Of a stretch of 64,000 bases of DNA, positions 2,689 to 47,958 are shown piece by piece (position 1 is the first letter of the stretch; each line of letters starts with the position of its first letter). Made by a program: the position numbers and the translations under genes. This DNA comes from Escherichia coli (GTDB lineage: Bacteria > Pseudomonadota > Gammaproteobacteria > Enterobacterales > Enterobacteriaceae): assembly GCF_030384885.1 (NCBI RefSeq), contig NZ_CP128613.1; one strand, written 5' to 3'. The notes beneath the pieces are model-generated. The model did no database searches. It was not told where the DNA came from and saw only the letters and a program-made list of their open reading frames with translations.

Positions 2689-2880
2689 TTAAAAATCACC
2701 GTACTCCTGTGCAGGTCGCCAGAAACCATCTATAAAATCCTCAATCGGAAAACAACCGCCATGGCGGATCCGTTGATCGCTCATAGAATAAAGACACTGT
2801 TGTTCCGTGTTGTAGACATCCACAACAATATCTTCACAACCGCCATCCAGGTAGCAAACAAAAAGTACCAGCGCGAACAT
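2689..2880 (-). CDS. yebW: Small uncharacterized protein YebW (63 aa)
   Basis: Internal Met of ORF 2689..2964 gives the 63-aa product MFALVLFVCYLDGGCEDIVV...; matches recalled YebW. Confidence 0.75.
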   Translation of the reverse strand: MFALVLFVCYLDGGCEDIVVDVYNTEQQCLYSMSDQRIRHGGCFPIEDFIDGFWRPAQEYGDF

Positions 2881-2984
2881 TTCATCCCCGAAGTGTGGTG
2901 CCGTACCGTTAAGTTTAGGAGAGATTTTACAACGGGGGAATAACCAGGACAAATAACCCGCCATGCCGACGGGTTCTTTTTGGA

Positions 2985-3221
2985 TCAGGCAAGACGCATA
3001 ATCCAGGCATCAGATTGTTGATCGTAACGGGTACGGTAAAGGACAGAGTGTTCGCCATTTAGTAGGGCAGGGATACTGGTTTCAGCATCCCAGGCATCCA
3101 GTTGCATACATAAATCGGGGTCTGATTTACAAGGAATGGTTAACGTTCGATCACCCGGCGATTCGCCGTGTAATTCGCCGTCGTCGATTTCAAAAGCGCC
3201 TATGCGCACACTGGTTTTCAT
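2985..3221 (-). CDS. yebV: Small uncharacterized protein YebV (78 aa)
   Basis: Product MKTSVRIGAFEIDDGELHGESPGDRTLTIPCKSDPDLCMQLD... matches recalled YebV; start taken at MKTSV within ORF 2985..3236. Confidence 0.8.
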   Translation of the reverse strand: MKTSVRIGAFEIDDGELHGESPGDRTLTIPCKSDPDLCMQLDAWDAETSIPALLNGEHSVLYRTRYDQQSDAWIMRLA

Positions 3222-30456: not shown

Positions 30457-30909
30457 ATGATCCGTATCGATTTCGTCACGGATGACGCCCTGTATCTTGA
30501 TACGGATAGCCTCATCGGCTGGGATTTTTCCGGCATGAACTTACATCGTGCCATTTTTGACGGTATGTGCCTGGACGGCGCGCGGTTTAATCATGCGCAT
30601 CTGCGTAATATCAGTTTTATCAACGCGTCCCTGATTGGGGCCGACCTCTCGTCCAGCGCACTGATGTGTGCCTGGTTAAACAGCGCCGATCTGACCAATT
30701 GTAATTTTGCTCAGTCACGACCCATTGATGCTGATTTTAGGCATGCACGACTTTGTGGGGCAGATTTTACCGACACCGATTTAAGAGGTGCTAATTTTTC
30801 ATCGACACATCTTCAGAATGTTTGTTTTAACGGGGCGCATTATGACAAACGAACTGTCTGGCCCGCAGAGTTTTATCCAAGGATTAACGGGGCTGTGTTG
30901 GTTGATTGA
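30457..30909 (+). CDS. Pentapeptide-repeat protein (Qnr/MfpA/McbG-like beta-helix), identity not recognised at this locus
   Basis: 150-aa ORF; residues ~22-131 are ~22 tandem 5-residue units (WDFSG MNLHR AIFDG MCLDG ARFNH AHLRN ISFIN ASLIG ADLSS SALMC AWLNS ADLTN CNFAQ ...) with F/L at the central position; ATG lies 6 nt after the yoaH stop and in the same frame; no strong SD. Confidence 0.65.
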   Translation: MIRIDFVTDDALYLDTDSLIGWDFSGMNLHRAIFDGMCLDGARFNHAHLRNISFINASLIGADLSSSALMCAWLNSADLTNCNFAQSRPIDADFRHARLCGADFTDTDLRGANFSSTHLQNVCFNGAHYDKRTVWPAEFYPRINGAVLVD

Positions 30910-46270: not shown

Positions 46271-46417
46271 TTATCACTGATCGTAGATGGCGCAATTTCT
46301 GCGCCATCGCAAAAAAATCCTCCGTGATGCTTGTCACAAATCTTGCCCTCCTGATGTTGTGCTATGCTTTTTATCAGCGACTAACCCGCTAATGCAAAAC
46401 AGATAAGTGAGGAAACA

Positions 46418-46666
46418 ATGGGCATTCTGTCATGGATTATTTTTGGGCTTATTGCCGGTATTCTGGCGAAGTGGATCATGCCAGGTAAAGATGGTGGTGG
46501 ATTCTTTATGACTATCCTGCTGGGGATAGTCGGTGCCGTAGTCGGCGGATGGATCAGCACGCTGTTTGGCTTTGGTAAAGTCGATGGCTTCAATTTTGGC
46601 AGCTTCGTGGTTGCCGTTATTGGTGCGATTGTCGTGCTGTTTATCTACAGAAAGATCAAAAGTTAA
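46418..46666 (+). CDS. yeaQ: GlsB/YeaQ/YmgE-family small membrane protein YeaQ
   Basis: 82-aa Gly-rich two-helix membrane product MGILSWIIFGLIAGILAKWIMPGKDGGGFFMTILLGIVGAVVGGWIS... Confidence 0.9.
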   Translation: MGILSWIIFGLIAGILAKWIMPGKDGGGFFMTILLGIVGAVVGGWISTLFGFGKVDGFNFGSFVVAVIGAIVVLFIYRKIKS

Positions 46667-46680
46667 CGCGTAAATTGCAC

Positions 46681-46716
46681 AAAGGCTGCACACAGGCAGC
46701 CTTTGCTATTTTTTAG
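46681..46716. terminator. Terminator hairpin between convergent yeaQ and yoaJ
   Basis: AAAGGCTGC-ACACAG-GCAGCCTTT followed by TTTTTT. Confidence 0.75.
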
Positions 46717-46724
46717 ATGTGACG

Positions 46725-46799
46725 TTACCACCATCCCAACTCAGTGCCGAGAACGACAATAATCGCTACGCCCATCATAATAATCGTTGTTTTTTTCAT
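46725..46799 (-). CDS. yoaJ: Small membrane protein YoaJ (24 aa)
   Basis: Minus-strand ORF MKKTTIIMMGVAIIVVLGTELGWW (below track threshold); matches recalled size of the Hemm-type small protein; assignment by length and position. Confidence 0.65.
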   Translation of the reverse strand: MKKTTIIMMGVAIIVVLGTELGWW

Positions 46800-46801
46800 C
46801 T

Positions 46802-46900
46802 TTACGCTCCCGGGGCAGCATAGCCGCCAATAAAAAACCATGCTAAAAATACGACCGCTGTAATAAAGATTACAACCGGAAAAATAATACCGATTCGCAT
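46802..46900 (-). CDS. yoaK: Small membrane protein YoaK (32 aa)
   Basis: Minus-strand ORF MRIGIIFPVVIFITAVVFLAWFFIGGYAAPGA ending 2 nt before yoaJ start; single TM helix. Confidence 0.65.
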   Translation of the reverse strand: MRIGIIFPVVIFITAVVFLAWFFIGGYAAPGA

Positions 46901-46932
46901 GTTATCACCAATCAAAAGGATGTGAATACGCC

Positions 46933-47958
46933 TCAGGAATGTAGCGCTGAATGCGCGACAAAAGGTGTTTTCTGTTTGTGTTTTTTCTCCTGATACATCG
47001 CGATATCGGCAGCATGCAGGGCGCTGTCTGCATCGGTCGTTTCAGGATCGACTTCTACTATGCCAAGACTGGCACCAGGATAATACAAATCAACATCACC
47101 TAAGTGATATTCTCCGCGTATTTGCTGTTGAATACGTTCTCGCAGCGATGGAATATCCGCATTCTCATTGTTCAGTGAAACAACCAAAAACTCATCACCG
47201 CCGAGACGACCAATAACTTCGCCATTTTGCTGGAGCGTATTAAGGCGCTCGCCAACCTGAATAAGAAACAGATCGCCACTATTATGACCAAAACGATCAT
47301 TGATTAATTTGAAGTTATCCAGATCGATAAATGCGATCATTATCTTATGGTTAAGATGCCTCGCAAGAGAAAACAGCGTCGTCAGGTTTTCAAAAATCGC
47401 CCGCCGATTCGGTAGCCCGGTTAACGAGTCGGTATACGATTGCGCAATCAGTGCGGCATTGGCTTCGCGCAGCTGTTCAACCAGCGCCTCTTTTTGAATA
47501 TATTGTGCAATCAGTCCGGCGAATAGCTGTAAAACCTGTTCCGCGCGTTCACTCCACTGGCGCTTCTCACTGCTGGCGGCGCAAAGTGTGCCATAGAATG
47601 ATCCATCCGGTAAGTGAATTGGCGTGCTCAGAAATGTGGTGATGCCAAGATTTCGTGCCGCAATACAGTCGCCCCAACGGTCGGGGACTTCATCGCTGAA
47701 AAAGCAGTTTTCATCAATGGCACGCTTGCATAATGAGTAATCCCACGAGACGGTAAAATTCTCCGGGATGTGCATTTTCTGGCTATTACGGGCAAACATA
47801 ATATGCTGCAGGCGCGCTTCGACATCCACTTTGGTCAGGTAGGTTGACTCCATATCAGTGACCATTTCCAGCATCTCCAGAAGCTGTCGGACCAGACTTT
47901 CCAGTGACTGTTCTTTGGCAAGGGATTGCGAGACGCGGGCGATAATCTGATCTGACAC
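46933..47958 (-). CDS. dgcP: Diguanylate cyclase DgcP (YeaP), GAF-GGDEF
   Basis: 341-aa product (M)SDQIIARVSQSLAKEQSLESLVRQL... with intact RLGGDEF active site; GTG start with GGAG RBS; ORF extends upstream to 48087 but known protein starts here. Confidence 0.88.
   Translation of the reverse strand: MSDQIIARVSQSLAKEQSLESLVRQLLEMLEMVTDMESTYLTKVDVEARLQHIMFARNSQKMHIPENFTVSWDYSLCKRAIDENCFFSDEVPDRWGDCIAARNLGITTFLSTPIHLPDGSFYGTLCAASSEKRQWSERAEQVLQLFAGLIAQYIQKEALVEQLREANAALIAQSYTDSLTGLPNRRAIFENLTTLFSLARHLNHKIMIAFIDLDNFKLINDRFGHNSGDLFLIQVGERLNTLQQNGEVIGRLGGDEFLVVSLNNENADIPSLRERIQQQIRGEYHLGDVDLYYPGASLGIVEVDPETTDADSALHAADIAMYQEKKHKQKTPFVAHSALHS

What the first reader, a model, noticed from the sequence alone, without database searches (positions are those of the whole stretch)
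46725..46900. Tandem tiny membrane-protein ORFs (24 and 32 aa) between yeaQ and dgcP
Seen: two back-to-back minus-strand ORFs, MKKTTIIMMGVAIIVVLGTELGWW and MRIGIIFPVVIFITAVVFLAWFFIGGYAAPGA, separated by 2 nt, each a single hydrophobic helix. They fall below the 60-aa ORF track and would be missed by standard gene callers. I assign them as yoaJ/yoaK from recalled small-protein annotations, with moderate confidence.
Basis: partly seen in the sequence, partly recalled or inferred. Interest (0 to 1): 0.25.

Follow-up and report, generated by a model that had tools for sequence, protein, structure and literature searches.

The report
Known small membrane genes yoaK, yoaJ

Summary
On the minus strand, a 32-aa ORF (46900..46802) ends in TAA and is followed after 2 nt (AG) by a 24-aa ORF (46799..46725).

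Both ORFs are 100% identical in protein sequence to E. coli K-12 YoaK (b4676) and YoaJ (b4675). They lie in the same dgcP-yoaK-yoaJ / convergent yeaQ arrangement, and both pass the NCBIfam equivalog cut-offs. The locus is present in 5418 of 5426 complete E. coli genomes.

ORFs of this size are common by chance. The evidence that these are genes is evolutionary:
- Across 72 species-level enterobacterial genomes, dN/dS is 0.057 for yoaK and 0.15 for yoaJ. The out-of-frame values are above 1.
- yoaJ starts -4 to +3 nt from the yoaK stop in 77 of 80 evaluable loci. The other three carry frameshifts.

Published work reports:
- chromosomally tagged YoaK is detectable;
- YoaJ has Nin-Cout topology;
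- RNA-seq supports a yeaP(dgcP)-yoaK-yoaJ operon;
- RseP cleaves both proteins in vitro.

Their function is unknown.

Side findings:
- The pair is retained where dgcP has been deleted (Salmonella, some Citrobacter).
- Solo YoaK-family genes lie directly after the CI repressor gene in lambdoid (pro)phages. They are unannotated in HK106, mEp234 and mEp506.
- In Buttiauxella, solo copies lie directly after a MASE5-GGDEF cyclase gene.

Verdict: already known, low interest.

The parts
46802..46900 (-). yoaK, a 32-aa single-pass small membrane protein (includes the TAA stop at 46802..46804)
   Evidence: The protein is identical to K-12 b4676. NF033821 scores 69.1 bits against a cut-off of 32. dN/dS is 0.057 over 72 species.
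46800..46801 (-). 2-nt spacer (AG) between the yoaK stop and the yoaJ start; the translational-coupling junction
   Evidence: Across 77 loci the junction is -4, -1, 0, +2 or +3 nt.
46725..46799 (-). yoaJ, a 24-aa single-pass (Nin-Cout) small membrane protein (includes the TAA stop at 46725..46727)
   Evidence: The protein is identical to K-12 b4675. NF011343 scores 60.4 bits against a cut-off of 54. dN/dS is 0.153. Topology is from PMC4597795.
46905..46909 (-). Shine-Dalgarno-like GGTGA, 4 nt upstream of the yoaK ATG
   Evidence: Read. GGTGA/GGTGG/GGTAA is conserved in this position in most genera.
46807..46811 (-). Shine-Dalgarno-like GGGAG for yoaJ, embedded in the last codons (P-G-A) of yoaK, 7 nt before the yoaJ ATG
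   Evidence: Read. The equivalent GGGGG/GGGAG/GGAGG is seen in other genera.
46938..46943 (-). Candidate -10 hexamer TACATT overlapping the last codons of dgcP; a possible yoaKJ-specific promoter (inferred only)
   Evidence: The column is conserved in the upstream alignment of 49 + 21 species: TACACT, TATGCT, TATTCT, TATCCT, and TATCAT/TATGAT in the Klebsiella/Kluyvera group. It is not conserved in some other Escherichia species. No TSS data were examined.
46680..46705 (.). GC-rich hairpin between convergent yoaJ and yeaQ; a terminator. The T-run is on the yeaQ strand, and on the yoaJ strand the stem is followed by UGCAAUUU.
   Evidence: One search shows 10 pairs, 6 of them GC. The RNA fold gives -21.2 kcal/mol with z = -2.3. 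A hairpin with changed stem bases is present in Salmonella, Enterobacter and Citrobacter.
46933..47958 (-). dgcP (yeaP), a GAF-GGDEF diguanylate cyclase; the upstream gene of the RNA-seq-predicted dgcP-yoaK-yoaJ operon
   Evidence: Annotation. The operon is from PMC4620388. There are 32 nt between the dgcP stop and the yoaK ATG.
46418..46666 (+). yeaQ (GlsB/YeaQ/YmgE family membrane protein), the convergent neighbour
   Evidence: It is found downstream and convergent in most loci of the Escherichia-Salmonella-Citrobacter-Enterobacter group.

Best explanation
These are the known E. coli genes yoaK and yoaJ. Both are real protein-coding genes. Each makes a micro-protein consisting of little more than one transmembrane helix that inserts into the inner membrane. 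YoaJ has its N-terminus in the cytoplasm and its C-terminal GWW in the periplasm. YoaK is predicted to be single-pass.

They are transcribed as the distal end of a dgcP-yoaK-yoaJ mRNA and, by inference, also from a weak promoter of their own that overlaps the dgcP stop codon. Transcription ends at the hairpin shared with convergent yeaQ.

The yoaJ start codon sits 2 nt after the yoaK stop, and its Shine-Dalgarno sequence lies inside yoaK's last codons. I therefore infer that yoaJ translation is coupled to yoaK termination, so the two are made together in fixed proportion.

The most likely mode of action is also inferred, not shown. The two helices would work together as a small hetero-oligomeric membrane module that binds and tunes a larger inner-membrane protein or complex, as AcrZ, MgrB, CydX and MgtS do. 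The intramembrane protease RseP would contribute to their turnover. The biochemical target is unknown.

Confidence by part: identity and coding status about 0.99, coupling about 0.7, paired accessory-subunit action about 0.4.
For: Identity:
- The translations are identical to K-12 b4676 and b4675 in the same synteny.
- Both pass the NCBIfam equivalog models.
- The locus is present in 5418 of 5426 complete E. coli genomes.

Coding status:
- In-frame dN/dS is 0.057 for yoaK and 0.153 for yoaJ over 72 species genomes, and above 1 out of frame. Third-codon positions are the most variable.
- All 6 differences from K-12 are synonymous.

Coupling and pairing:
- 77 of 80 evaluable chromosomal loci carry a 24-25-aa YoaJ ORF ending in GWW that starts -4 to +3 nt from the yoaK stop. 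The 3 exceptions are frameshifts.
- A G-rich Shine-Dalgarno sequence lies inside yoaK's P-G-A codons.
- The pair is retained together where dgcP was deleted, in Salmonella and in C. amalonaticus and a related Citrobacter MAG.

Expression and localisation, from the literature:
- A yeaP-yoaK-yoaJ operon is predicted from RNA-seq (PMC4620388).
- Chromosomally tagged YoaK is detected at a low level (10.1101/511675).
- YoaJ is integrally membrane-associated, and its Nin-Cout topology is reported as experimentally confirmed (PMC4597795).
- YoaJ is reported to be induced by diamide (PMC12542507, citing Hemm 2010).
- RseP cleaves both proteins in vitro, and YoaJ co-immunoprecipitates with RseP (PMC10470546, PMC4597795).

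Terminator hairpin.
Against: - No experiment or computation here shows that YoaK and YoaJ touch each other or any partner.
- Neither appears in any solved structure.
- In vivo RseP cleavage is inconsistent between tags; both are 'class II' candidates in PMC10470546.
- YoaK-family genes occur without YoaJ in prophages and in Buttiauxella, so YoaK can function alone.
- The proposed internal promoter rests only on a conserved -10-like hexamer. It has no good -35 element, and the consensus sigma-70 scans found nothing usable.
- The hexamer is degenerate in some other Escherichia species.
Confidence: 0.85

Rival explanations
1. YoaK, with or without YoaJ, is an accessory or regulator of diguanylate cyclases. 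It would tether or modulate DgcP, or c-di-GMP signalling more generally, at the membrane.
For: yoaK lies 35-130 nt downstream of dgcP in most genera. In Buttiauxella a solo YoaK-family gene lies 7-14 nt downstream of a different cyclase, MASE5-GGDEF. That is a second, independent gene-order link to GGDEF enzymes. A yeaP-yoaK-yoaJ operon is reported (PMC4620388).
Against: Salmonella and some Citrobacter deleted dgcP but kept yoaKJ intact and under purifying selection. Prophage copies have no cyclase nearby. DgcP is a soluble GAF-GGDEF protein with no membrane segment annotated. No interaction data exist.
Confidence: 0.15
2. YoaK-family micro-proteins act in phage-host conflict. Possible roles are superinfection exclusion, modification of a membrane entry factor, or another lysogenic-conversion function. 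On this view the chromosomal copy is a domesticated or ancestral version acting on the same membrane target.
For: Solo YoaK-family ORFs lie on the same strand directly after the CI-type repressor gene (HTH_3 + Peptidase_S24). They precede variable cargo (HicAB, HipA_2, DUF6414, P63C) in prophages and IMG/VR contigs, in phages HK106, mEp234 and mEp506, and in a Klebsiella phage. This corresponds to the position of rexAB in lambda, a comparison from my own knowledge. The ORFs pass NF033821 at 55-74 bits and have dN/dS of 0.076.
Against: There is no PADLOC or PHROGs family match. The window copy is a core chromosomal gene outside any prophage, present in nearly all E. coli and paired with YoaJ, which phages lack. 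The position next to cI is suggestive only.
Confidence: 0.12
3. The two proteins have unrelated functions and are adjacent only because they share a transcript.
For: YoaK occurs alone in phages and Buttiauxella. The two behave differently in RseP assays (PMC10470546). Diamide induction is reported only for YoaJ (PMC12542507).
Against: The junction is invariant and very tight, and the two are co-retained in 77 of 80 loci across many genera, including lineages that lost the upstream gene.
Confidence: 0.2
4. They are chance ORFs, regulatory leader peptides or type I toxin-like peptides rather than functional membrane proteins.
For: Short hydrophobic ORFs are common by chance: one search lists 65 ORFs of at least 20 aa in 3 kb. 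Several E. coli type I toxins are small hydrophobic peptides.
Against: There is strong frame-specific purifying selection. No gene lies downstream on the same strand to be regulated; only a terminator and convergent yeaQ follow. No Rfam antisense RNA or other RNA family is found in 46300..47300 at E<=1. Tagged protein has been detected (10.1101/511675).
Confidence: 0.02

Closest known systems
E. coli K-12 YoaK (b4676; NCBIfam NF033821 'YoaK family small membrane protein'; Pfam PF28021 in precomputed annotations)
   Same: The 32-aa sequence is identical, with the same position after dgcP and before yoaJ.
   Different: Nothing in the protein differs. There are 2 synonymous nucleotide differences.
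E. coli K-12 YoaJ (b4675; NCBIfam NF011343 'protein YoaJ')
   Same: The 24-aa sequence is identical, with the same 2-nt junction after yoaK and the same terminator and convergent yeaQ.
   Different: Nothing in the protein differs. There are 4 synonymous nucleotide differences.
Solo YoaK-family ORFs of lambdoid phages HK106, mEp234 and mEp506, and of Rac-like and other prophages
   Same: They share the family signature M[RK].G..FP...[FI]I.A..[FL]..WF..GGYA.P and the 31-36-aa size. They are about 61% identical to the window YoaK and pass NF033821.
   Different: They have no YoaJ partner. They lie after the CI repressor gene in the immunity region and carry WFI rather than WFF. They are unannotated in the phage records.
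Characterised small inner-membrane regulators or subunits (AcrZ-AcrB, MgrB-PhoQ, CydX-cytochrome bd, MgtS-MgtA, KdpF); a functional analogy from general knowledge, not homology
   Same: All are single-helix proteins of 50 aa or fewer in the E. coli inner membrane, and several were found in the same small-protein screens.
   Different: There is no sequence relationship and no known partner for YoaK or YoaJ. No other pair in this list is encoded as two translationally coupled micro-genes.

Membership tests
YoaK family small membrane protein (NF033821) | Whole-protein HMM score above the curated cut-off | tested here: met
   69.1 bits against a cut-off of 32, with residues 1-32 matching profile positions 1-32.
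YoaK family small membrane protein (NF033821) | Orthology to K-12 b4676: sequence identity and conserved gene order (dgcP - yoaK - yoaJ - convergent yeaQ) | tested here: met
   100% amino-acid identity. The synteny is identical.
YoaK family small membrane protein (NF033821) | It is translated and located in the membrane | not testable with these tools
   Only the literature bears on this. Chromosomally tagged YoaK is detected at a low level (10.1101/511675). A single transmembrane span is predicted for the whole screening set in which YoaK was tested (PMC10470546). Here there is only hydropathy (GRAVY 1.88) and purifying selection.
Protein YoaJ (NF011343) | Whole-protein HMM score above the curated cut-off | tested here: met
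   60.4 bits against a cut-off of 54, with residues 1-24 matching profile positions 1-24.
Protein YoaJ (NF011343) | Orthology to K-12 b4675: identity and position immediately after yoaK | tested here: met
   100% identity. The junction is 2 nt, as in K-12.
Protein YoaJ (NF011343) | Type II (Nin-Cout) integral inner-membrane topology | not testable with these tools
   Reported in PMC4597795, which cites Fontaine 2011 and shows its own fractionation. The sequence is consistent: N-terminal MKKTT, a hydrophobic core, and C-terminal ELGWW.
Type I toxin-antitoxin small hydrophobic toxins (Hok, Ldr, Ibs, TisB type) | A cis- or trans-encoded antisense RNA antitoxin at the locus | tested here: not met
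   No Rfam family matches at E<=1 on either strand of 46300..47300. Only a weak consensus promoter match lies antisense, at 46753..46781. Uncatalogued RNAs cannot be excluded.
Regulatory leader peptide / upstream ORF | A downstream gene on the same strand whose expression it controls, with the peptide sequence itself usually weakly constrained | tested here: not met
   yoaJ is followed by a terminator hairpin and convergent yeaQ. dN/dS is 0.057 and 0.153.
Known anti-phage defence proteins (PADLOC) / PHROGs phage families | A match to a family profile | tested here: not met
   There are no PADLOC hits. PHROGs gives only E>0.07 noise hits, for the window proteins and for the phage-borne YoaK copies alike.

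The most novel reading that the evidence does not exclude
YoaK defines a micro-protein family shared between enterobacterial chromosomes and temperate phages. The chromosomal form is an obligate, translationally coupled two-helix module (YoaK+YoaJ) acting on a conserved inner-membrane target. Lambdoid prophages express a solo YoaK paralogue from the repressor operon to act on the same target in lysogens, for example to block superinfection or rewire c-di-GMP or envelope signalling. The phage copies are currently unannotated in reference phage genomes.
Probability: 0.15. Interest if true: 0.5.

Novelty: already known. Interest (0 to 1): 0.12.

Why it matters
For the genome scan, this is a correct re-discovery of two annotated small genes and needs no further attention as a novelty. 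It is a useful positive control, because a sequence-only reader can spot genuine sub-50-aa genes that many automatic gene calls skip. yoaJ was uncalled in 6 of 9 non-E. coli loci inspected.

The biology of YoaK and YoaJ is still unknown. The comparative facts gathered here narrow where to look for a function:
- the YoaK-YoaJ junction is invariant across genera;
- the pair is retained after dgcP loss;
- there is a second gene-order link to a GGDEF cyclase;
- solo YoaK copies lie in the cI operon of lambdoid phages.

Tried and rejected
I worked round this with an exact cluster look-up, a full-library phmmer search with YoaK, exact-protein contig look-ups and a degenerate codon-pattern scan of genome and viral collections.
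- The primary papers are not held in the library: Hemm 2008, Hemm 2010, Fontaine 2011 and the EcoSal 2020 review. Their results are cited only through papers that quote them.
- The local Pfam copy has no YoaK model, although precomputed annotations list PF28021.
- PDB, PADLOC, PHROGs and Rfam gave nothing.
- The consensus sigma-70 scans gave no credible yoaK promoter. The one minus-strand match near the gene (46926..46899) has its -10 element overlapping the start codon, so I rejected it. The Salmonella upstream region gave no match.
- A literature search for a YoaK-phage link found nothing relevant.
- I did not run an AlphaFold prediction of a linked YoaK-YoaJ fusion. The tool returns no interface or PAE measure, so the result could not have tested pairing.
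- I rejected the chance-ORF, leader-peptide and type I toxin readings, for the reasons given under rival explanations.

Full report
**1. Observation**

The minus strand of the window carries two ORFs.
- The first starts with ATG at 46900 and encodes MRIGIIFPVVIFITAVVFLAWFFIGGYAAPGA, with stop TAA at 46804..46802.
- Two nucleotides (AG) follow.
- The second starts with ATG at 46799 and encodes MKKTTIIMMGVAIIVVLGTELGWW, with stop TAA at 46727..46725.

The ORFs lie between dgcP (46933..47958, minus strand) and convergent yeaQ (46418..46666, plus strand).

ORFs of this length are not remarkable in themselves. The same 3-kb stretch contains 65 ORFs of at least 20 aa. The case for real genes therefore has to come from elsewhere.

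**2. Identity**

An 801-nt query spanning yeaQ to the dgcP 3' end matches 5418 of 5426 complete E. coli genomes. RefSeq annotates yeaQ, yoaJ, yoaK and dgcP under the match.
- In K-12 MG1655 the same positions are yoaK (b4676, 99 nt) and yoaJ (b4675, 75 nt).
- Their translations are identical to the window ORFs.
- The window differs from K-12 at 6 nucleotides inside the two ORFs, and all 6 are synonymous.
- Both peptides pass the NCBIfam equivalog models. NF033821 YoaK scores 69.1 bits against a cut-off of 32, and NF011343 YoaJ scores 60.4 bits against 54.

**3. Are they genes?**

The peptides were too short for the homology tools. I therefore used four other routes:
- an exact cluster look-up;
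- a full-library phmmer search with YoaK;
- exact-protein contig look-ups;
- a degenerate codon pattern for W-F-[FI]-[IVM]-G-G-Y-A, scanned over one genome per species and over IMG/VR.

These recovered 144 YoaK-like small ORFs. All came from contigs labelled as Enterobacteriaceae genera, apart from a few generically labelled MAGs and one contig labelled Chryseobacterium.

For 72 species-level chromosomal loci with both genes:
- pairwise Nei-Gojobori dN/dS is 0.057 for yoaK and 0.153 for yoaJ in the annotated frame;
- the shifted frames give 1.7-3.1;
- third-codon positions carry most of the variation.

Invariant or near-invariant residues:
- YoaK: M1, G4, F7, P8, I11, F12, A15, F18, L19, W21, F22, G25, G26, Y27, A28, P30.
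- YoaJ: K3, T5, A12, G18, G22, W24, with W23 in 71 of 72.

Both ORFs are therefore under strong, frame-specific purifying selection.

**4. Architecture**

In 77 of 80 evaluable chromosomal loci, a 24-25-aa ORF ending in GWW starts close to the yoaK stop codon. The junction distances and their counts are:

| Distance from yoaK stop | Loci |
|---|---|
| -4 nt | 13 |
| -1 nt | 15 |
| 0 nt | 26 |
| +2 nt | 20 |
| +3 nt | 3 |

The three exceptions are single-assembly frameshifts:
- L054 and L187 have frameshifts at the 3' end of yoaK.
- L059 (C. sedlakii) has lost one A from the A7 run at the start of yoaJ.

The yoaJ Shine-Dalgarno sequence (GGGAG at 46811..46807) lies inside the last codons of yoaK. 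yoaK has GGTGA 4 nt before its ATG, and both features recur in other genera. I infer translational coupling and co-production. This was not tested.

Downstream, a 10-bp GC-rich hairpin at 46680..46705 lies between yoaJ and convergent yeaQ (-21.2 kcal/mol, z = -2.3). Its T-run is on the yeaQ strand.

No Rfam family matches the region.

**5. Transcription**

RNA-seq-based operon prediction reports a yeaP(dgcP)-yoaK-yoaJ operon (PMC4620388).

Salmonella, C. amalonaticus and a related Citrobacter MAG lack dgcP but keep yoaK-yoaJ. They also keep a recognisable remnant of the dgcP 3' end (CCTTTTGTC...) upstream of yoaK.

The upstream alignment shows a positionally conserved -10-like hexamer at or just after the dgcP stop:
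- TACATT in the window (46943..46938);
- TACACT in Enterobacter;
- TATGCT, TATTCT and TATCCT in Citrobacter and Salmonella;
- TATCAT or TATGAT in the Klebsiella/Kluyvera group.

I take this as suggestive evidence for a separate weak promoter, with three caveats. The consensus scans found none. The hexamer is degenerate in some other Escherichia species. I had no TSS data.

**6. What is known experimentally**

All of this comes from papers read here.
- Chromosomally tagged YoaK is detectable in stationary phase, among the more weakly expressed of the originally identified small proteins (10.1101/511675).
- HA-MBP-YoaJ is integrally membrane-associated. YoaJ's Nin-Cout topology is cited as experimentally confirmed. 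YoaJ co-immunoprecipitates with RseP (PMC4597795).
- RseP cleaves both YoaK and YoaJ in vitro. The in vivo results depend on the tag, and both are 'class II' candidates (PMC10470546).
- Their function is explicitly described as unknown (PMC9769844, PMC4597795).
- Neither appears in any PDB entry.

**7. Mechanism**

What is shown: two conserved genes for single-helix membrane micro-proteins, always adjacent.

What is inferred: coupled translation giving fixed stoichiometry, and action as a two-helix module on a larger inner-membrane partner, by analogy with AcrZ, MgrB, CydX and MgtS (general knowledge). RseP would contribute to turnover.

Rival readings are scored in the structured fields:
- an accessory of diguanylate cyclases;
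- a role in phage-host conflict;
- two unrelated functions that merely share a transcript;
- chance ORF, leader peptide or type I toxin, which the selection data and the gene layout exclude.

**8. Side findings**

Thirty-two YoaK-family ORFs of a 'WFI' subtype have no YoaJ.

Many lie on the same strand directly after a CI-type repressor gene (HTH_3 + Peptidase_S24). Variable cargo follows: HicAB, HipA_2, DUF6414 or P63C.

The same ORF is present in four sequenced phages:
- It is intact but unannotated in phages HK106, mEp234 and mEp506, between cI and hicA.
- In a Klebsiella phage it is mislabelled 'CI transcriptional regulator'.

These copies pass NF033821 at 55-74 bits and have dN/dS of 0.076. 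They match no PHROGs or PADLOC family.

In Buttiauxella, solo copies lie 7-14 nt after a MASE5-GGDEF cyclase gene.

A full-text search of the held papers found no discussion of a YoaK-phage link. These are leads to function, not part of the finding.

**9. Verdict**

The finding is real, correctly interpreted and already known. Interest is low. The most novel reading still open, a phage/host-shared micro-protein module, has perhaps a 15% chance.

Noticed in passing
L016 2501..2599 (phage HK106, NC_019768.1 complement 30461..30559); also mEp234 and mEp506 (hits H18-H23); L013 3001..3099; L014 3001..3105; L015 3001..3111; L017 2480..2599: YoaK-family 31-39-aa ORFs sit directly after the CI-type repressor gene in lambdoid phages and prophages, ahead of HicAB, HipA_2, DUF6414 or P63C cargo. 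They are unannotated in HK106, mEp234 and mEp506, and mislabelled 'CI transcriptional regulator' in Klebsiella phage ST974-OXA48phi18.2. They pass NF033821, have dN/dS of 0.076, and have no YoaJ partner.
   Followed up: partly
L084, L105, L114, L132 (Buttiauxella genomes): Solo YoaK-family genes lie 7-14 nt downstream of a MASE5-GGDEF diguanylate cyclase gene. This is a second, independent gene-order link between YoaK and c-di-GMP synthases, besides dgcP.
   Followed up: partly
L003/L004 (Salmonella) 2805..3000; L009-L011, L058, L083 (Citrobacter amalonaticus group), upstream of yoaK: dgcP has been deleted, together with yoaF in C. amalonaticus. A remnant of the dgcP 3' end (CCTTTTGTC...) and a -10-like hexamer are retained upstream of an intact yoaK-yoaJ pair. 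This suggests that the pair has its own promoter and is selected independently of dgcP.
   Followed up: partly
L059 (Citrobacter sedlakii NBRC 105722), just after yoaK: yoaJ is frameshifted by loss of one A in the A7 run at codons 2-3 (ATGAAAAAAACA). L054 and L187 have frameshifts at the yoaK 3' end that fuse the reading frames, and similar fused variants appear among database proteins (P0017-P0019). They may be sequencing errors or real slippage.
   Followed up: no
L138-L189: about 30 IMG/VR Klebsiella/Raoultella-type contigs (e.g. L139, L143, L153): Many predicted proviruses of about 37-39 kb end exactly at the stop codon of the chromosomal-type yoaK, with dgcP just inside the contig. This is probably a boundary artefact of provirus prediction trimmed at a gene end, or a prophage integrated next to dgcP-yoaK in Klebsiella.
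   Followed up: no
L003-L011: yoaJ is intact in all 9 Salmonella, Enterobacter and Citrobacter loci but was called as a gene in only 3 of them. This is a systematic annotation gap for the 24-aa gene outside E. coli.
   Followed up: yes
L006 3910..4002 (Enterobacter, CP003026.1): Another annotated small-protein gene (PF28073 YncL, 30 aa) lies just beyond yeaQ in this genome, so several micro-protein genes cluster in this neighbourhood.
   Followed up: no
window 46753..46781 (+): There is a weak sigma-70-like match (ACGACA-17-CATAAT) antisense to yoaJ. The region as a whole has fewer promoter-like matches than its shuffles (3 against a mean of 3.8), and no RNA family is found there.
   Followed up: partly
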